This document shows, in pieces, positions 2,934 to 50,627 of a stretch of 64,000 bases of DNA; the first letter of the stretch is position 1; the number at the start of each line of letters is the position of its first letter. Made by a program: the position numbers and the translations under genes. This stretch comes from Patescibacteria group bacterium (GTDB taxonomy: Bacteria > Patescibacteriota > Patescibacteriia > 2-01-FULL-39-33), in contig JBAZRV010000002.1 in assembly GCA_041662745.1 (NCBI GenBank), positions 21,785-85,784 of the forward strand, written 5' to 3'. The notes under the pieces are model-generated. The model saw nothing but the letters and a program-made list of their open reading frames with translations, had not been told where the DNA came from and ran no database searches.

Positions 2934-3446
2934 ATGTTACGACATAAATTACAGCAAGGGTTCACTTTGATTGAATTGCTGATTGCCATCGCTATTTTTA
3001 CGATGCTTTCTTCTTTTATGGTGGCCAGTTTTACCAGTGACGAGAAAACCCGCCTATTAAAAGAACAGGCTGATTTGGTTTTAGCCGGAATTGATCAGGC
3101 GCGTAATTTATCTTTGGCCGGCAGCGGCCCAAGCAATATTTATTCTCAACAGTTTGTTTTTACTGTCAGTAATTGCCAAACCGGTTGTTTTTATGAGGTC
3201 AAGGGCCGAGATCCGGATCAGCAGATAGTCAAGAAAAATTTAGAGGGGATAAGCGTCACTGTTAAAAATGAAACGAGCAATCAGTTGTCAATTTCTTTCG
3301 CCGTGCCTCGGGGGCGAATGGCCTTGTCCGGCGATAGCAATCCCAGTGAGGCCCAGATAGAAGTCAGTAACAATTCAAGCGCTTTTTGCATCCAAGTTAA
3401 CAGTATTTCTGGTAAGGTTGAGGAAATTAAAGGCAATTGCCCGTAG
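2934..3446 (+). CDS. Minor pilin / pseudopilin with prepilin N-terminus
   Basis: MLRHKLQQG|FTLIELLIAIAIF. Confidence 0.7.
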   Translation: MLRHKLQQGFTLIELLIAIAIFTMLSSFMVASFTSDEKTRLLKEQADLVLAGIDQARNLSLAGSGPSNIYSQQFVFTVSNCQTGCFYEVKGRDPDQQIVKKNLEGISVTVKNETSNQLSISFAVPRGRMALSGDSNPSEAQIEVSNNSSAFCIQVNSISGKVEEIKGNCP

Positions 3447-45317: not shown

Positions 45318-46184
45318 ATGTTGTTAAATATCACAGTCTTAATAATTTTAATAATTTCCTTGATTTTGCTGGCTCGCATTATCTGGCGGCATTTGCCGGA
45401 ACTGAAGATCTTGGATATCAATTCCATTCCCAAGGAAAAACACGTTGACACCAAAGCTAAGATTTTGGAGTCAAAGTTTTTGCGCCAAAGCGATAAGACG
45501 CGCCAGCGTTTGGATAAAGTGATCGGGCCGATTAAGGCCGGCGTGGGCGGGTTGAAAAGCAGATTGCAAGAGCAGGTGCAGACATTGGAGAAAAAATATC
45601 AACGCCACGGGGAAGTAGAGGAGGCGAAAACCAAAAGCATCAACGATTTATTCGTGGAAGCGGAGCAATTGCTGGCTAAAGATGATTTGGCGGCGGCGGA
45701 AAGGGATTTGATTGAGATTATTTCCCGCGATAAAAAGAGTATCCGCGCCTATGAATTATTATCCGACGTGTATCGAAGCGGAAAAAATTATGAGCAGGCG
45801 GCCGAGGTGATTAAATATTTGATCAAGCTTAAATCGCTCAAGTACCGCAAAAAGAATCCGGTTGAACCGTTGCAAAAGGAAAAATTGGAAGATACGGAAG
45901 CGGCTATGCTGGAGACGATTAATGTGGATGTGGAAATCGCTGGCTATTATGATGACCTGGGCAAGGTTTATGAGATTTTAGGTAAAATTGACAAGGCTTT
46001 GGATAACTACCTCAAAGCCAACGCCATTGAACCCAATAACCCCAAATACCTGGATAAAGTCATTGATTTGGCTATTCTGGTCAAGGATAAGGGGTTGGCC
46101 AAGAAAACCTATCGCCAACTAAAGGAGATTAATCCGGAAAATGCCAAATTGGCCCGATTTAAAGAGGCGCTTGAAAAAATGTAA
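45318..46184 (+). CDS. Membrane-anchored TPR-repeat protein
   Basis: N-terminal TM helix; TPR-like helical repeats (AYELLSDVYRSGKNYEQAAE...). Confidence 0.55.
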   Translation: MLLNITVLIILIISLILLARIIWRHLPELKILDINSIPKEKHVDTKAKILESKFLRQSDKTRQRLDKVIGPIKAGVGGLKSRLQEQVQTLEKKYQRHGEVEEAKTKSINDLFVEAEQLLAKDDLAAAERDLIEIISRDKKSIRAYELLSDVYRSGKNYEQAAEVIKYLIKLKSLKYRKKNPVEPLQKEKLEDTEAAMLETINVDVEIAGYYDDLGKVYEILGKIDKALDNYLKANAIEPNNPKYLDKVIDLAILVKDKGLAKKTYRQLKEINPENAKLARFKEALEKM

Positions 46185-46214
46185 GAAGTGTGCTAAAATA
46201 GTTCTGTTGTTTTC

Positions 46215-46287
46215 GCCGTTGTAGCTCAGTTGGTAGAGCGCATCCATGGTAAGGATGAGGTCTCCGGTTCAAGCCCGGACAACGGCT
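46215..46287 (+). tRNA. tRNA-Thr (anticodon GGT)
   Basis: Cloverleaf folded by hand: acceptor GCCGTTG/CAACGGC, D-arm GCTC/GAGC, anticodon loop ATGGTAA, T-arm TCCGG-TTCAAGC-CCGGA; no encoded CCA. Confidence 0.85.
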
Positions 46288-46322
46288 TAGGTGGTAAAAT
46301 CGTATTATTAGGTTATAAACTC

Positions 46323-46404
46323 GGGTCGGTACCAAAGCGGTCAACTGGGGGAGACTGTAAATCTCTTGGCTCTGCCTTCGGGGGTTCGAATCCCTCCCGG
46401 CCCA
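46323..46404 (+). tRNA. tRNA-Tyr (anticodon GTA), class II with 13-nt variable arm
   Basis: Acceptor GGGTCGG/CCGGCCC, anticodon loop CTGTAAA, variable arm TGGCTCTGCCTTC, T-arm GGGGG-TTCGAAT-CCCTC. Confidence 0.85.
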
Positions 46405-46418
46405 TATCAAAAAGAAAA

Positions 46419-46446
46419 ACAGGATATTATCCTGTTTTTCTTTTTG
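46419..46446 (+). terminator. Terminator after the tRNA pair
   Basis: CAGGATA-T-TATCCTG palindrome followed by TTTTTCTTTTT. Confidence 0.7.
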
Positions 46447-46623
46447 ACTTGAGTTGTCGATAGGATTCGAACAGGCGGTTAATTGAGCCAGAAGTCCGAC
46501 GGAAGGAGGACGACGCAGCGAAATTACAGCCAATCCGAGCTGGCGTAGGATTGGCGACCACCCAGGACAGAAGAAATTGCCAGATTCTGCTGGCGATTTC
46601 TGTCGGAAATCCCTCCCGGCCCA
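46447..46623 (+). ncRNA. GC-rich structured element ending in a copy of the tRNA-Tyr 3' end (candidate tRNA-linked ncRNA or degraded att repeat), copy 1
   Basis: 5' GGATTCGAAC, internal helices (GCCAATCC/GGATTGGC; GCCAG/CTGGC), 3' CGGAAATCCCTCCCGGCCCA; own downstream terminator. Confidence 0.3.
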
Positions 46624-46632
46624 TAAATTTAA

Positions 46633-46660
46633 AAACGCAGGCTTTATGCCTGTGTTTTTA
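46633..46660 (+). terminator. Terminator after structured element 1
   Basis: ACGCAGGC-TTTAT-GCCTGTGT followed by TTTTT. Confidence 0.6.
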
Positions 46661-46671
46661 AATTTATAAGT

Positions 46672-46840
46672 TGAGAGCGGGATTCGAACGGGTCAGCAGT
46701 GAAGCAAGTTCCGAGGCGGAAGCCGAGGAATGAAGCTGAACGCCGACAGTTGCGACCCTGGGAGCAACTGGCGCTGACCCGGGACAAATGAACTCGTCGC
46801 TTTTGGGCGGCGAGTGAGCGCGGAAATCCCTCCCGGCCCA
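46672..46840 (+). ncRNA. GC-rich structured element ending in a copy of the tRNA-Tyr 3' end, copy 2 (diverged paralog of copy 1)
   Basis: 5' GAGCGGGATTCGAAC; long-range helix CGGGTCAGC/GCTGACCCG; hairpins CAGTTGC/GCAACTG and CTCGTCGC/GCGGCGAG; 3' CGGAAATCCCTCCCGGCCCA; possible -10 TATAAG at 46665. Confidence 0.3.
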
Positions 46841-46847
46841 ATTTTGT

Positions 46848-46877
46848 AAAAGAGTGGTTAATCGCCGCTCTTTTTGT
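46848..46877 (+). terminator. Terminator after structured element 2
   Basis: AAAAGAGTGG-TTAATCG-CCGCTCTTTT then TG. Confidence 0.6.
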
Positions 46878-46902
46878 TATAATAAATCCATAAAATAATT
46901 TT

Positions 46903-47754
46903 ATGGCAAATAATAAACAAGTCACTATTTTTGAGGGTCAGAAAATTCGTCGGCATTATGATGAAAAAAATGAAAAATGGTATTTTTCGGTTATTGATAT
47001 TATTGCCGTATTGATTGAACAACTTGATTTTAAAAAAGCCAAGAGTTATTGGGCAACTCTTAAAAATCGGCTAAGAATGGAGGGAAGTGAGGTGGTCACA
47101 AAATGTGACCAACTGAAAATGCAGTCGGCTGATGGGAAATTTTACCTGACTGATGTGGCCGATGTTGAAGTGATATTCCGTCTCATCCAGTCTGTGCCCA
47201 GCCCTAAAGCCGAGCCAATCAAGCTCTGGTTGGCTAAGGTTGGCTACGAAAGAATTGAGGAAATATCCGATCCTGAAAAAGCGCTTAATCGCAGCCGTGA
47301 TTATTGGCAGAAAATGGGCCGAAGCAAGCAATGGATCCAGCAGAGGATGATGGGTCAGGAAATCAGGAACAAACTGACTGATTATTGGAAGGATAATGAA
47401 GTTAAGAAACAAGATGAATATGCTATTTTGACAAACATAATCCACGAGGAATGGAGTGATCTATCAGTTAAAGACCATAAGAAATTAAAGGGATTGAAGA
47501 CGCAGAATTTACGCGACCACATGAGTGATGCGGAATTGGTTTTTACGGCTTTGGCGGAATTATCTACTCGTCAGATCGCGGAGACTATGTCGACAAAGGG
47601 TTTAGAAGATAATAAAATTCCCGCGAAAAGGGGTGGGCGAATTGCCAAGAATGCGCGGTTGGAATTGGAGCAAAAAACTGGCAGAAAAGTCGTCAGTGGA
47701 AATAATTTTTTTCAATCGGCTAAAAGTGGTAAAAGACTAAAGGGTCAAGGTTGA
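46903..47754 (+). CDS. DinD-like (DNA-damage-inducible protein D) / Bro-N domain protein
   Basis: Pattern similarity to E. coli DinD along the length (KWYFSVIDIIAVL..., KKLKGLKTQNLRDHMSDAELVFTA..., KRGGRIAKNARLELEQKTG). Confidence 0.55.
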   Translation: MANNKQVTIFEGQKIRRHYDEKNEKWYFSVIDIIAVLIEQLDFKKAKSYWATLKNRLRMEGSEVVTKCDQLKMQSADGKFYLTDVADVEVIFRLIQSVPSPKAEPIKLWLAKVGYERIEEISDPEKALNRSRDYWQKMGRSKQWIQQRMMGQEIRNKLTDYWKDNEVKKQDEYAILTNIIHEEWSDLSVKDHKKLKGLKTQNLRDHMSDAELVFTALAELSTRQIAETMSTKGLEDNKIPAKRGGRIAKNARLELEQKTGRKVVSGNNFFQSAKSGKRLKGQG

Positions 47755-47859
47755 TTTTGCGGGGTTTTTGTATTGGTTTTTGACCGAGGTCGGATTAGAT
47801 TCGAACTTTAGATAGTAAATAAATTTGAGATTTGGTATAATATAGCTATATTATTATTT

Positions 47860-48663
47860 ATGTATAATCCTCCAGCCATAAAATCCTCAAAATTTTGGCC
47901 ATTACTTAAAATTGGTTTTAGTCGATTTGTTAAGGATTTTTTCTCGCTCAAATCTTTTTATGTATTGGCTTATAATTTTGTACCGTTTTTAGGAGTGATC
48001 TTAAATTACTACGACTTTTATACTCTGATTTTTGTTTACCTTTTTGAAACTGTCATCTTGGCTTTTTTTGCGATATATAAAACATACTATTTCAAATGGG
48101 AAGAAGTAATGATTTATGCTCCAGTTACAATTATAATTGTCGGCTTTGTGACTTTTTTTGTTTGTTTTGTTGTGGTCGGTTCTATTTCTAGTGGTCAACC
48201 CTTTAAGCTAAGTAGCCTTCTTTTACACTATCCCTTAAAGAGTCCTCTCATAGTTATCGCTAACCTAATCTATTATACCCTTCAAGAGGGCTATTTAATG
48301 ATTAAATCCATGCAGTCTGGCGTTATGAGCAAAGTTAAGAGTTATTTGTCATCAAATTTGATTAAAACTCAAAAGGATTATTTGTTTAATATCGTACTTA
48401 ATCAAATAAATCCAGCCCTGGTCAGAGCGTCTACGCTGTTAGTAGCTGCTTTTTTTACTATGTTTGTTATTTTTCCTGCCGCGATAATATATATTTTTAT
48501 CCGTGCTTATAGCAACAGCGACATTCCTATCGAATATATATTTACTTATTCGGCGATGTTCAGTGTTTGTTTATGGAAGGGGATATTTGATATTTTAACT
48601 CGTATTAATGAAAAATATGATTCTGAAAAACTTAAGGAATTTGAGTTAAAATTAACGTCATAA
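47860..48663 (+). CDS. Hypothetical polytopic membrane protein (AT-rich gene, ~31% GC)
   Basis: 6-7 TM helices; strongly AT-rich relative to flanking genes. Confidence 0.45.
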   Translation: MYNPPAIKSSKFWPLLKIGFSRFVKDFFSLKSFYVLAYNFVPFLGVILNYYDFYTLIFVYLFETVILAFFAIYKTYYFKWEEVMIYAPVTIIIVGFVTFFVCFVVVGSISSGQPFKLSSLLLHYPLKSPLIVIANLIYYTLQEGYLMIKSMQSGVMSKVKSYLSSNLIKTQKDYLFNIVLNQINPALVRASTLLVAAFFTMFVIFPAAIIYIFIRAYSNSDIPIEYIFTYSAMFSVCLWKGIFDILTRINEKYDSEKLKEFELKLTS

Positions 48664-48692
48664 TTTTTTTATTTTAACTTAAAAAATAATTT

Positions 48693-50627
48693 ATGAAAAA
48701 AATTATCATTTTGGCATTCGCGCTGTTCGGTTCCTTGGCTCTTTTTATCGCCGTCTATGCGGATTATTCCCCGTCCCCAGGAGATATCATCAAAGTTGAT
48801 GATAAGACAAAGCCCGCGCTGTATCTGATAGACAGCCAAGGAAATCGCCAATTATACTCTAATGCGGTCACATTCTGGACTTGGCATAGCGGCGATTGGA
48901 ACAATATCAAGGATGTAAATGGCAATAAAGTGACGTTAAAGTTGATTAGCCAAAGCGATTTCGATAATATTCCGAGCACTAAAAATGTAGTTGCGAGAGC
49001 CAATTCGACTTTGCTGAAGTTCGACAATAGCGGCAATATTTATACTGTCGCTGATGATGGCGTAATCAACAAGGTTGCCACTAGTGATGATGATTCCGTA
49101 GCTAAAAAACTCTATGGCGATAATTATAAAAACCAAATAATTGTTATTCAAAATAGCTTTCAAAATGATTACATAGAGGGTCAGCCGTTGACTATTAGTT
49201 CAAGTGTACCCCAGCTAACACAACCGGGACAAGTACTATCTTATATTAGTTGTATTGATTCTGATTATGGATCAGATGGATCAGAGGCTATTTATGATTT
49301 CGGAAAAACTGTACTTAAAAACAGTAATGGAAACGATACTGCATATGAGGATTCTTGTTCTGATATATATACTAATAAAGAATGGCAGTGTAAGCATGAT
49401 GGCACAATACAAGCTGAATCTTTTTATATAGAATGTAGTAATGGTTGTGAAAACGGTCATTGTGTAAAATCATTTGATTCTTCGGTCTGTACTGATTCGG
49501 ATGGTGGACAAAACTACACTGTTCAGGGAGTAATTCGTGGACTCGGTTGGGATAATAAACCCCATGCTAATTTTGACTCTTGCGTAGATGCAACCGTATT
49601 ACGTGAAGGATTTTGCATAGTTCCTACTGGAAACGTAGTAGGCACGCTTTCTTCAAAAGATGTAACTTGCCCCAGTGGTTGTAAAAATGGTGCCTGCGTA
49701 AATCCAGATACTAGTTGTGTTACTGGCCAGCATAAAGAAAATGATAACTGCATATCCGATTTTCAAACCTGCACTATTGCCAATGGTACGGCGCAAAAAA
49801 GTTGGAATGGGACTACTTGGGGGGATTGCACGCTTGCTTCCTGCAATAGTGGTTATGAAAAATATAATAATGAATGTAAAAATAGCAGTTGTGTCGATTC
49901 TGATGGCGGTCAAAATTATTATGTGAAAGGAACTGCTACTATGGGTTGGCAAACTACACCAGATTGGTGCTCAACAGACAGTACTGGCTTAAATTCGGGC
50001 TGGATAGTCGAAGCATGGTGTGACAGTAATGGGATTAGGCAGGATTGGCACTTTTGTCCCGGTGGATGCAGCAACGGTACCTGTCTTCAAGCTACTAGCT
50101 GTTCTTCTGGTCAGCATTTGGAAAATGATCGTTGTGAGGCCAATATAAAATCTTGCAATATGTTGTATGGAACGGGTCAGCAGACATGGGCTAATGGCGC
50201 CTGGAGCGATTGCCAAGCAGTATCTTGTAGTACAAATTATGAAATAAAAAATAATATCTGTGTTGCTGCAACAAAATATTGTAGTCAAACCGATGACGAC
50301 ACCGATACTGGTTTCGTAGTGGGTACTGGAATTCAAACCTGGAATGGCGATTCATGGGGTATGTGTAATGCGACCTCCTGTCTGCCAGGATTTGAATTGA
50401 ATGGAAATAGGTGTTTTGCCTCTTTTCATCCTAATTGTGTTGATTATGATAGTGGTAAAGATTATTTTACTAAGAGTTATACTATGTTTGGTAGCGGTTT
50501 TGGCTATGATTATTGCGATACCAGTCATAATAATGATTTAGGCGAATGGTATTGTTTGAATAATATGTATAATTTGCAATATTATACTTGCCCCAAGGGT
50601 TGCAGTAATGGGGCTTGCATTCAATAA
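48693..50627 (+). CDS. Secreted modular cysteine-rich repeat protein
   Basis: Signal peptide; repeated modules CxDSDGGQNYxVxG, CPxGCxNGxC, and 3 copies of C..GQH.END.C...C...GT.Q.W.G..W..C...C..GYE..NN.C. Confidence 0.55.
   Translation: MKKIIILAFALFGSLALFIAVYADYSPSPGDIIKVDDKTKPALYLIDSQGNRQLYSNAVTFWTWHSGDWNNIKDVNGNKVTLKLISQSDFDNIPSTKNVVARANSTLLKFDNSGNIYTVADDGVINKVATSDDDSVAKKLYGDNYKNQIIVIQNSFQNDYIEGQPLTISSSVPQLTQPGQVLSYISCIDSDYGSDGSEAIYDFGKTVLKNSNGNDTAYEDSCSDIYTNKEWQCKHDGTIQAESFYIECSNGCENGHCVKSFDSSVCTDSDGGQNYTVQGVIRGLGWDNKPHANFDSCVDATVLREGFCIVPTGNVVGTLSSKDVTCPSGCKNGACVNPDTSCVTGQHKENDNCISDFQTCTIANGTAQKSWNGTTWGDCTLASCNSGYEKYNNECKNSSCVDSDGGQNYYVKGTATMGWQTTPDWCSTDSTGLNSGWIVEAWCDSNGIRQDWHFCPGGCSNGTCLQATSCSSGQHLENDRCEANIKSCNMLYGTGQQTWANGAWSDCQAVSCSTNYEIKNNICVAATKYCSQTDDDTDTGFVVGTGIQTWNGDSWGMCNATSCLPGFELNGNRCFASFHPNCVDYDSGKDYFTKSYTMFGSGFGYDYCDTSHNNDLGEWYCLNNMYNLQYYTCPKGCSNGACIQ

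What the first reader, a model, noticed from the sequence alone, without database searches (positions are those of the whole stretch)
46405..46880. Two tandem GC-rich structured elements downstream of tRNA-Tyr, each ending in the tRNA-Tyr 3' end and each with its own terminator
Directly after tRNA-Thr and tRNA-Tyr there are two elements of about 175 nt (46447-46623 and 46672-46840). They are about 55% GC in an AT-rich genome. Both begin with GGATTCGAAC, which is the reverse complement of the tRNA T-loop GTTCGAATCC. Both end with CGGAAATCCCTCCCGGCCCA, which is the T-stem 3' strand plus acceptor 3' strand of the adjacent tRNA-Tyr. Both have extensive internal helices, for example CGGGTCAGC/GCTGACCCG, CAGTTGC/GCAACTG and CTCGTCGC/GCGGCGAG in copy 2, and GCCAATCC/GGATTGGC in copy 1. 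Both are followed by a separate rho-independent terminator. The two copies share a central CCGA-GGAAG-GAGGA core and are otherwise diverged, so they are paralogs and not a recent duplication. No ORF on either strand is plausible. One reading is stacked remnants of attL/attR repeats from serial integrations at the tRNA-Tyr 3' end. The other is a family of small RNAs with a tRNA-like 3' terminus, perhaps 3'-processed or CCA-tagged like a tRNA. The shared non-tRNA core, the 5' T-loop complement and the private terminators favour the RNA reading.
Basis: seen in the sequence. Interest (0 to 1): 0.78.

Follow-up and report, generated by a model that had tools for sequence, protein, structure and literature searches.

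The report
tRNA-tailed structured RNA elements (RtT-like)
The two GC-rich units after tRNA-Tyr belong to a previously uncatalogued family of about 165-nt folded RNA elements in Patescibacteria that sit behind tRNA genes and always end in a copy of that tRNA's last 16-17 bases, an arrangement otherwise known only from the unexplained RtT repeats behind E. coli tRNA-Tyr.

Summary
Two 161/162-nt units (46462-46623, 46679-46840) follow tRNA-Thr and tRNA-Tyr. Each starts with (A/G)GGATTCGAAC, ends in the tRNA-Tyr 3' 16-mer, and is bracketed by strong hairpin terminators. They are two subtypes (63% identical) of a family I recovered in 14 further copies (two of them partial or decayed) from Patescibacteria contigs. 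No Rfam family matches. Covariation is strong: 91% of cells are paired, and 29 of 42 pairs change on both sides, against 5-9 in slid controls. The fold is a closing helix P0, then P1 bearing two hairpins (one with an invariant GGAA loop), then a third hairpin, with conserved purine-rich junctions. Across the family the elements lie behind tRNA-Tyr, three tRNA-Ser genes and tRNA-Gln, and the 3' tail always equals the neighbouring tRNA from T-loop A58 to the discriminator. This holds even where the bodies are nearly identical. No integrase or other shared gene is linked. Copy number varies among relatives (0, 1 or 2). The architecture matches E. coli RtT (tyrT 178-bp repeats), but no sequence homology is detectable. 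Best reading: an RtT-like, protein-less RNA-gene element tied to tRNA 3' ends by recombination. Transcription, processing and function remain untested.

The parts
46171..46199 (+). promoter-like site (TTGAAA-17-TAAAAT) of the tRNA-Thr/tRNA-Tyr unit
   Evidence: consensus scan; it is the only + strand promoter-like site in 46100-47000
46215..46287 (+). tRNA-Thr(GGT)
   Evidence: ARAGORN; Rfam 66.3 bits
46323..46404 (+). tRNA-Tyr(GTA); its last 16 nt (46389-46404, A58 to discriminator A73, no encoded CCA) are the repeated tail
46407..46447 (.). palindromic terminator hairpin 1 (19-bp stem, A run / T run on either side)
   Evidence: fold -23.6 kcal/mol
46448..46461 (+). leader of element 1; GAGTTGT (46451-46457) resembles a decayed tRNA-Tyr acceptor 5' strand (GGGTCGG)
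   Evidence: read; pairing test inconclusive
46462..46469 (+). element 1, P0 5' strand AGGATTCG (start of the invariant GGATTCGAAC, the complement of the tRNA T arm)
46474..46562 (+). element 1, helix P1 (46474-46479 / 46557-46562) enclosing hairpin A (46482-46524, C-GGAA-G loop) and hairpin B (46527-46556)
   Evidence: covariation; coordinates
46563..46603 (+). element 1, conserved junction CAGGACAGAAGA, hairpin C (46575-46598) and junction TCTGT
46604..46623 (+). element 1, P0 3' strand CGGAAATCCC plus tail TCCCGGCCCA; 46608-46623 is identical to the tRNA-Tyr 3' end
46624..46666 (.). palindromic terminator hairpin 2; the same palindrome occurs inverted in L022 and nearly identical in L031
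   Evidence: fold -24.4 kcal/mol
46667..46678 (+). leader of element 2 (TAAGTTGAGAGC), shared with L022
46679..46686 (+). element 2, P0 5' strand GGGATTCG
46691..46779 (+). element 2, helix P1 (46691-46696 / 46774-46779) enclosing hairpin A (46699-46741, GGAA loop) and hairpin B (46744-46773)
46780..46820 (+). element 2, junction CGGGACAAATGA, hairpin C (46792-46815) and junction GAGCG
46821..46840 (+). element 2, P0 3' strand CGGAAATCCC plus tail TCCCGGCCCA; 46825-46840 is identical to the tRNA-Tyr 3' end
46848..46874 (.). terminator hairpin 3 with T run
   Evidence: fold -13.4 kcal/mol

Best explanation
The two units are members (two subtypes) of an undescribed family of about 165-nt structured RNA elements in Patescibacteria (Buchananbacteria-like Parcubacteria). 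These elements live directly behind tRNA genes. Shown: the + strand folds into a closing helix P0. From P0 spring P1, which carries a GNRA-capped hairpin A and a hairpin B, and a hairpin C, joined by conserved purine-rich strands. The 3' strand of P0 and the 10-nt tail after it are a copy of the neighbouring tRNA gene from T-loop A58 to the discriminator. The 5' strand of P0 is the reverse complement of that T-arm segment. The tail changes with the tRNA (Tyr, Ser-TGA, Ser-GGA, Ser-GCT, Gln) while the body is conserved. Elements stack in arrays, decay, and are present or absent among close relatives. No protein gene travels with them. Inferred: they are protein-less RNA-gene cassettes that are created, moved or homogenised by recombination at the T-loop-to-3'-end segment of tRNA genes. 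That would explain the flanking direct repeat and the inverted repeat that closes the RNA. Each cassette is probably a separate, terminator-bounded transcription unit or a read-through product. Its tRNA-derived terminal helix and tail would then let the tRNA end-maturation enzymes trim it at the discriminator, as reported for E. coli rtT RNA released from the tyrT transcript. What the mature RNA does is not known. The invariant GNRA loop and junctions point to a defined tertiary fold that binds a partner or catalyses a reaction.
For: Structure: the RNAalifold consensus has 42 pairs, 28 of them with compensatory changes. On the 15-sequence model alignment, 91% of cells are paired and 29 pairs change on both sides, against 5-9 for slid controls and 0/500 shuffles. 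Strand: 20 G.U cells against 9 A.C cells, an invariant C-GGAA-G loop, and better fold z-scores on + (-2.1, -3.4) than on - (-1.1, -1.6). The differences between L003 and copy 2 are G.U to A-U and U.G to C-G. Family: 16 copies in all, the two in the window plus 14 elsewhere, two of those partial or decayed. Tail tracks the tRNA: tail tables. In L031 the tRNA-Tyr T stem is GCTGG/CCAGC and the element tail is AATCCAGCCCGGCCCA. L024a and L024b bodies are 96% identical but their tails (CCCACCC, CCCTCCC) each match their own tRNA-Ser. L020 and L021 bodies are nearly identical yet their tails, leaders and spacers are locus-specific. Body similarity does not follow tRNA identity: copy 2 is 74% identical to the tRNA-Ser elements of L024 but 63% identical to copy 1. 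Polymorphism: the window has 2 copies, L003 has 1, L015 has 1, L031 has 1 plus a stump, and L004 and L010 have 0. No linked protein: all-against-all ORF comparison within 6 kb of 11 loci finds only syntenic housekeeping genes, and Pfam finds no integrase near the window array. Known analogue: the Rfam RtT structure on the E. coli tyrT/tyrV repeats has the same closing helix between an upstream complement and the tRNA-derived AUCCUUCCCC. It also has the same A58 boundary, an unpaired acceptor tail, a branched GC-rich interior and a tandem array.
Against: No expression data exist. Strong terminators separate the tRNA from element 1 and element 1 from element 2, and no sigma-70-like promoter was found in the 12-25-nt leaders. 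How the RNA is made is therefore open. An acceptor-stem-like pairing of leader and tail is not statistically supported across the family, which weakens the inferred tRNA-type end processing. Neither simple DNA model fits everything. A T-loop integrase crossover would give the tRNA an element-borne tail, and a target-site duplication should abut the insert on both sides, which it does not on the left. Three copies (L018, L019, second copy of L022) have no detectable tRNA upstream. Homology to RtT is not detectable: the RtT model does not hit the window at E<=10, and my model scores about 1 bit on the E. coli repeats.
Confidence: 0.6

Rival explanations
1. Pure att scars: the units are leftover attL/attR junction DNA from serial integration and excision of genomic islands at tRNA-Tyr, with no function at the RNA level.
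For: The direct repeat runs from the T loop to the tRNA 3' end, which is the classic identity block of tRNA-integrating elements. A variable low-GC island follows the array. This tRNA locus is an integration hot spot in relatives: L005-L007 carry an integrase island in tRNA-Thr.
Against: The DNA between repeats is only about 215 bp and never contains an integrase in any of 16 copies. Scars would not keep 42 base pairs through compensatory substitutions across 55-75% identical sequences. The integrase island in relatives sits in the tRNA-Thr anticodon loop and carries no such element.
Confidence: 0.04
2. A host small RNA that mimics a tRNA acceptor/T-stem minihelix. The leader pairs with the tail, RNase P and RNase Z cut it out, the CCA-adding enzyme tags it, and it acts as a decoy or regulator for tRNA-binding enzymes. 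It is not mobile; copies spread only by duplication together with tRNA genes.
For: MFE folds of copy 2, L024a and the variant element L024:6610-6779 extend the closing helix into the acceptor strand: GUUG/CGGC leaving a CCA overhang, GGAG/CUCC, and GGAGAG/CUCUCC. The L024 leader GGAGTGG matches the tRNA-Ser acceptor strand GGAGAGG at 6 of 7 positions. In L018 the tail is intact although no tRNA is left upstream.
Against: Leader-tail pairing is no better than shuffles for most copies, with a combined P of about 0.05. The T loop is replaced, and ARAGORN and the Rfam tRNA/tmRNA models see nothing. The patchy presence, decayed copies and near-identical bodies behind different tRNAs look like a mobile or converting repeat.
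Confidence: 0.2
3. A cis-acting regulator of tRNA maturation. In a read-through transcript the invariant GGGAUUCGAAC pairs either with the element's own tail (P0) or with the T arm of the upstream tRNA (11 nt perfect), and so switches tRNA folding or processing.
For: There is 11-nt perfect complementarity to GUUCGAAUCCC of the adjacent tRNA. GAAC is invariant although unpaired in the consensus fold. Rfam classes RtT as cis-regulatory.
Against: Very stable terminators (-23.6 and -24.4 kcal/mol) lie between the tRNA and the elements. Orphan copies without a tRNA keep an intact body. The second element in an array is far from the tRNA.
Confidence: 0.08
4. A guide RNA: a conserved scaffold followed by a 16-nt guide taken from flanking DNA, as in TnpB omega-RNAs or the tRNA-homing crRNAs of type V-K CRISPR transposons. 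It would direct a trans-encoded nuclease or transposase to tRNA genes.
For: The design is a conserved scaffold with a 3' segment that changes with the insertion site and equals the adjacent target.
Against: No TnpB, IscB, Cas or transposase gene lies within 6 kb in 11 loci. The 644-aa ORF downstream is a signal-peptide, Cys-rich repeat protein. Part of the 'guide' is base-paired in P0.
Confidence: 0.04
5. The conserved fold acts in single-stranded DNA (like integron attC sites or IS200/IS605 ends) and is recognised by a recombinase during mobilisation, rather than in RNA.
For: The elements behave like mobile or recombining DNA, and covariation alone cannot tell RNA from ssDNA.
Against: The architecture is multi-branched, with an invariant GNRA tetraloop and purine-rich junctions, which is typical of RNA. 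Terminators bracket each unit like a gene. No recombinase is linked.
Confidence: 0.05

Closest known systems
RtT RNA / the 178-bp repeats distal to E. coli tyrT-tyrV (Rfam RF00391; Egan & Landy 1978 and Bosl & Kersten 1991, cited from memory and via PMC7542023)
   Same: Both lie immediately 3' of a tRNA-Tyr gene. In both, the unit ends in the tRNA's 3' end starting at the same T-loop position (AAUCC...). A closing helix forms between that tRNA-derived strand and an upstream reverse complement, and the acceptor tail is unpaired. The interior is GC-rich and branched. Arrays are tandem, copy number varies between strains (PMC7542023), and the function is unknown.
   Different: No sequence or covariance-model similarity is detectable. 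The Patescibacteria family has an extra hairpin, an invariant GGAA loop and the full T-loop complement GGGAUUCGAAC. It occurs behind at least five different tRNA genes with matching tails. Its copies are diverged paralogs rather than near-identical repeats. Strong terminators separate the units, and the tRNA genes and tails lack an encoded CCA.
attL/attR direct repeats of tRNA-integrating islands (tyrosine integrases that cross over in the T loop; general knowledge)
   Same: The direct repeat spans the T loop to the tRNA 3' end. Elements stack at one tRNA, and presence or absence varies among relatives.
   Different: There is no integrase and no cargo. The segment between repeats is about 215 bp and is a structured RNA under purifying selection. 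Tails switch between unrelated tRNAs while the resident tRNA stays intact.
tRNA-like domains of tmRNA and viral/retroplasmid 3' tRNA-like structures
   Same: A large RNA body is closed by a helix built from tRNA acceptor/T-arm sequence, with a discriminator at the 3' end.
   Different: The T loop is not intact because the body emerges from it. The acceptor pairing is weak or absent in most copies. There is no resume codon or tag, and ARAGORN and Rfam do not detect it.
IS200/IS605 omega-RNA (TnpB) and delocalised homing crRNA of type V-K CRISPR transposons
   Same: A conserved scaffold is followed by a short 3' segment identical to the DNA next to the element, here a tRNA gene end.
   Different: No nuclease or transposase gene is present. 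The variable segment is partly inside a helix, and the element is not inside a transposon.

Membership tests
RtT RNA (RF00391) | Scores above the Rfam gathering threshold (45 bits) with the RtT covariance model | tested here: not met
   There is no RtT hit in 46150-46950 even at E<=10. The same model scores 133-137 bits on the E. coli repeats. My model R1 scores about 1 bit on those repeats.
RtT RNA (RF00391) | Lies directly 3' of a tRNA gene and ends in that tRNA's 3'-terminal segment from the T loop onward | tested here: met
   The E. coli boundary is TTCG|AATCC and the boundary here is ..|AATCCC.
RtT RNA (RF00391) | Closing helix between the tRNA-derived strand and an upstream complement, with an unpaired acceptor tail and a branched interior | tested here: met
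   Rfam consensus structure, compared with the consensus.
RtT RNA (RF00391) | Released from the tRNA primary transcript by processing | not testable with these tools
   No RNA data are available. The intervening terminators argue that transcription differs from E. coli.
att repeats of an integrated island | Integrase or other island genes between or next to the repeats, in this genome or in relatives | tested here: not met
   and relatives. The only integrase island found is in tRNA-Thr and lacks the element.
att repeats of an integrated island | Direct repeat equal to the 3' part of the target tRNA gene | tested here: met
tRNA-like RNA (tRNA, tmRNA, TLS) | Acceptor stem formed by the 5' end and the 3' tail | tested here: inconclusive
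   It forms in MFE folds of some copies. Family-wide pairing gives a combined P of about 0.05, and individual copies are not significant.
tRNA-like RNA (tRNA, tmRNA, TLS) | Intact T arm, and recognition by tRNA/tmRNA detectors | tested here: not met
   ARAGORN and the Rfam tRNA/tmRNA models find only the two true tRNAs.
MITE-type transposon | Terminal inverted repeats with a target-site duplication abutting both ends | tested here: inconclusive
   An 8-bp inverted repeat GGGATTCG/CGAATCCC exists. However, the repeated tRNA tail abuts only the right end, and on the left a terminator spacer intervenes.
Guide RNA of TnpB/IscB/Cas12k | Adjacent RNA-guided nuclease or transposase gene | tested here: not met
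Group I introns of Patescibacteria tRNA genes (PMC13011429) | Inserted inside the tRNA (anticodon loop) and matching a group I intron model | tested here: not met
   The elements lie outside intact tRNAs, and there is no Intron_gpI hit.

The most novel reading that the evidence does not exclude
RtT-type elements, including the 45-year-old E. coli tyrT repeats, are a widespread class of protein-less, RNA-based mobile elements. In this reading the folded body is a ribozyme or recombination scaffold that finds tRNA genes through its 11-nt complement to the universal T arm (GGGAUUCGAAC vs GUUCGAAUCCC). It then copies the target's 3' end as it inserts, so that each copy carries a spare tRNA acceptor strand.
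Probability: 0.1. Interest if true: 0.9.

Novelty: new variant of a known kind. Interest (0 to 1): 0.68.

Why it matters
The finding adds a well-supported structured RNA class, with strong covariation and no Rfam match, to the small set known from the Candidate Phyla Radiation. It also shows that the odd design of E. coli RtT is not an enterobacterial curiosity. That design is a folded RNA closed by an inverted copy of the neighbouring tRNA's 3' end and ending in a direct copy of it. It recurs in a distant phylum and at several tRNA species, and the tail is re-matched to each tRNA. The origin and function of RtT-type elements therefore become testable by comparative genomics (filled versus empty sites, tail switching) and by simple biochemistry (RNase P, RNase Z, CCA-adding enzyme, self-cleavage). 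For annotation, these partial tRNA 3' ends should not be read as prophage att scars.

Tried and rejected
1. The first collection pattern (GGATTCGAACNGG..CCNGGACANANGAA) found nothing in genome or viral contigs. A looser pattern worked.
2. Two pattern hits were chance matches: L027 (Alistipes) and viral L030, which has no model hit. No member was found in viral contigs.
3. A minus-strand tRNA-like reading was rejected. There is no T stem around GTTCGAATCC on the - strand, the fold z-scores are weaker there, and G.U cells outnumber A.C cells on +.
4. Origin of the tail by reverse transcription of mature tRNA stopping at m1A58 was rejected. None of the tails carries CCA, and these tRNA genes do not encode CCA.
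5. The guide-RNA or CRISPR-transposon idea was rejected. The 644-aa downstream ORF is a secreted Cys-rich protein and no nuclease is nearby.
6. A conserved partner protein was not found: no family is shared among neighbourhoods.
7. Leader-tail acceptor pairing was tested by energy and by pair count, and both were inconclusive.
8. Homology to RtT was tested with both covariance models and not detected.
9. Orphan copies are not next to any Rfam family.
10. Five literature searches found no description of this family. One paper, Bosl & Kersten 1991, could not be read.
Full report
**1. Observation**

The window carries tRNA-Thr(GGT) at 46215-46287 and tRNA-Tyr(GTA) at 46323-46404. A promoter-like site lies just upstream at 46171-46199.

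- GGATTCGAAC occurs on the + strand only at 46463 and 46680. Its complement lies in the tRNA-Tyr T arm.
- The 16-mer AATCCCTCCCGGCCCA occurs exactly three times: at the tRNA end, at 46608-46623 and at 46825-46840.
- The two cores (46462-46623 and 46679-46840) align without gaps and are 63% identical.
- Their GC is 0.56 and 0.62, against 0.446 for the window.
- Very stable palindromic hairpins with T runs follow the tRNA, copy 1 and copy 2: -23.6, -24.4 and -13.4 kcal/mol.
- No Rfam family other than tRNA matches the region, even at E<=10.

The description is therefore accurate. Only the last 16 nt of the shared 3' 20-mer are tRNA sequence.

**2. Organism and relatives**

Homologues of the upstream TPR protein carry names such as Candidatus Buchananbacteria and Parcubacteria / Patescibacteria group. 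Syntenic loci were fetched through those proteins.

| Locus | TPR identity to window | State behind tRNA-Tyr |
|---|---|---|
| L003 | 92% | one element, 95% identical to copy 2 |
| L015 / L016 | 59% | one element, 85% identical to copy 1 |
| L031 | 58% | one element plus a truncated stump |
| L004 | 58% | only a terminator |
| L010 | 57% | only a terminator |
| L012, L013, L033 | 85%, 63%, 60% | no tRNA-Tyr at this position |

The two window copies are thus old paralogs, each with its own orthologues, and copy number is polymorphic.

**3. The family**

A degenerate pattern built on conserved blocks recovered further copies.

- Metagenome contigs: L018-L024.
- Species-representative genomes: two Buchananbacteria MAGs, plus one contig labelled Gammaproteobacteria.
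- Chance hits: L027 and viral L030.

A covariance model built from 13 sequences finds 16 copies in the sequence held. The intact ones score 130-179 bits, L031 scores 103 bits, one is cut by a contig end (81 bits) and one is decayed (19 bits).

**4. Structure**

RNAalifold predicts 42 pairs, 28 of them with compensatory changes. On the model alignment of 15 sequences:

- 91% of cells are paired.
- 29 pairs change on both sides, against 5-9 when the partners are slid by 1-3 columns.
- 0 of 500 shuffles reach the observed covariation.

The fold is as follows (coordinates):

- P0: GGGAUUCG pairs with CG..AAUCCC.
- Junction AAC(A).
- P1, which encloses hairpin A (invariant C-GGAA-G loop) and hairpin B.
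- Junction (A)GGACAAGUGAA.
- Hairpin C.
- Junction GUGAGCG, returning to P0.
- A tail of about 10 nt.

The + strand is favoured by three observations:

- G.U cells (20) outnumber A.C cells (9).
- The hairpin A loop is a GNRA tetraloop.
- Single-sequence fold z-scores are better on +.

The few differences between copy 2 and L003 turn G.U into A-U and U.G into C-G. This is the signature of a functional folded RNA. Single-stranded DNA cannot be formally excluded.

**5. The tail tracks the neighbouring tRNA**

Elements lie behind five different tRNA genes:

- tRNA-Tyr: window, L003, L015, L031.
- tRNA-Ser(TGA): L020, L024a.
- tRNA-Ser(GGA): L021.
- tRNA-Ser(GCT): L024b.
- tRNA-Gln: L023.

In each intact copy, the sequence from AAUCC onward equals the adjacent tRNA from A58 to the discriminator. 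The clearest cases are these:

- **L031.** Its tRNA-Tyr has the T stem GCTGG/CCAGC, and the element tail reads AATCCAGCCCGGCCCA.
- **L024a and L024b.** The bodies are 96% identical, but the tails (CCCACCC, CCCTCCC) match their own tRNA-Ser.
- **L020 and L021.** The bodies are nearly identical over more than 110 nt. The tails, leaders and terminator spacers are locus-specific.

Body similarity cuts across tRNA identity. Copy 2 is 74% identical to the tRNA-Ser elements of L024 but only 63% identical to copy 1.

Decayed copies have decayed tails (L023; L024:6171-6317). Three copies have no detectable tRNA upstream (L018, L019 and the second copy in L022), and L018 and L019 still keep an intact Gln-like or Ser-like tail; the L022 copy is cut off by the contig end before its tail.

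L024:6610-6779 is a different GC-rich body (fold z-score -5.8). It again ends in the tRNA-Ser 3' end and is closed by an acceptor-like helix GGAGAG/CUCUCC. The superfamily is therefore wider than my model.

**6. What is not there**

- No integrase, transposase or nuclease is associated. Pfam on the ten neighbouring proteins gives TIM, aldolase, TPR, Bro-N and DUF6055, with no match for the other five.
- An all-against-all comparison of ORFs within 6 kb of 11 loci finds only syntenic housekeeping genes.
- The 644-aa ORF downstream is a signal-peptide, Cys-rich repeat protein.
- An integrase island does exist in some relatives, but it sits in the anticodon loop of tRNA-Thr and carries none of these elements.
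- No sigma-70-like promoter was found in the short leaders.
- Leader-tail pairing that would make a true acceptor stem is seen in some MFE folds. Across the family it is not significant (combined P about 0.05).

**7. Closest known thing**

The E. coli tyrT-tyrV locus was fetched. Its 178-bp repeats, which Rfam models as RtT, share these features with the window elements:

- They end in AATCCTTCCCCCACCACCA, so the repeat begins at the same T-loop position as here.
- Rfam's consensus structure closes the RNA with a helix between an upstream GGGGAAGGAU and the tRNA-derived AUCCUUCCCC.
- The acceptor tail is left unpaired.
- The helix encloses a branched GC-rich interior.

The design and genomic setting are the same. 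Neither covariance model detects the other family. I therefore call this a new variant of the RtT kind, not a member of RF00391. The function of RtT is still described as unknown, and its copy number varies between strains.

**8. Mechanism**

*Shown:*

- A conserved folded RNA.
- A tRNA-derived closing strand and tail that follow the neighbouring tRNA.
- Arrays, decay and presence/absence polymorphism.
- No linked protein.

*Inferred:* the cassettes arise, move or are homogenised by recombination at the T-loop-to-3'-end segment of tRNA genes.

- A T-loop crossover by a trans-acting tyrosine recombinase explains both repeat boundaries (A58 and the discriminator). It would, however, give the resident tRNA an element-borne tail, which is hard to reconcile with tail switching between Tyr, Ser and Gln.
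- A target duplication explains the switching. It does not explain the terminator spacer between the left repeat and the body.
- Gene conversion of bodies between long-resident copies would explain identical bodies with locus-specific flanks.

I cannot decide among these with the data held (note).

At the RNA level, the most economical idea follows what is reported for E. coli rtT RNA. The tRNA-derived helix and tail would define the 3' end through the tRNA maturation enzymes. This is unproven and is weakened by the poor acceptor pairing and by the intervening terminators.

**9. Verdict**

This is a real, non-chance feature and a new structured RNA family with an RtT-like, tRNA-tailed architecture. 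I am about 95% confident that it is a conserved structured RNA linked to tRNA 3' ends. I am about 60% confident in the combined explanation given as best. Transcription, end processing, mobility mechanism and function are all open, and they are directly testable.

Noticed in passing
L005:6733-7176 (also L006, L007); empty site in L004:6933-7005: In some strains an island with two Phage_integrase genes is inserted in the anticodon loop of tRNA-Thr(GGT). The island brings its own tRNA-Thr copy, interrupted after the anticodon by an insert of about 195 nt. The insert may be a group I intron of the kind described for Patescibacteria (PMC13011429), but no Rfam model hits it at E<=0.01 and ARAGORN misses the gene.
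   Followed up: partly
window 46903-50627: A low-GC block (down to 0.22-0.35) directly follows the element array. It encodes a Bro-N protein, a multi-pass membrane protein and a 644-aa secreted Cys-rich protein. The block is absent from the 92% relative L003. No further tRNA-Tyr 3' repeat bounds it.
   Followed up: partly
L022:1-123 and 2977-3099: This 3099-nt contig begins and ends inside the same element. Either two identical copies lie 2.98 kb apart or the assembly is circular. The second copy is not preceded by a tRNA.
   Followed up: no
window 46624-46666; L022:2935-2977; L031:4363-4403: The palindromic terminator between the two elements is conserved across distant relatives. In L022 it is present in inverted form, with the loop and mismatch positions flipped. 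Other terminator spacers in the family are replaced wholesale although the adjacent bodies are 95% identical.
   Followed up: no
L024:6610-6779 and L024:6171-6317: A second, unrelated-looking GC-rich structured body (MFE -86.7 kcal/mol, z -5.8) also ends in the tRNA-Ser 3' end and has a clean acceptor-like closing stem. Next to it is a decayed family copy with the tail AATCCCGCTCTCTGCCA, which matches neither neighbouring tRNA.
   Followed up: partly
alignment A3, columns 15 and 108 (window 46473/46563 and 46690/46780): The two bases flanking helix P1 co-vary as A.A (most copies), G.G (window copy 2) or U-A (L019). This suggests a conserved non-canonical pair at the junction.
   Followed up: no
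L029 (E. coli NC_000913 1286000-1287500): The E. coli RtT unit contains GGGGAAGGAT, the reverse complement of the tRNA-Tyr T-stem and acceptor segment in its own tail. The repeats are therefore closed by an inverted copy of the tRNA 3' end, just like the Patescibacteria elements.
   Followed up: partly
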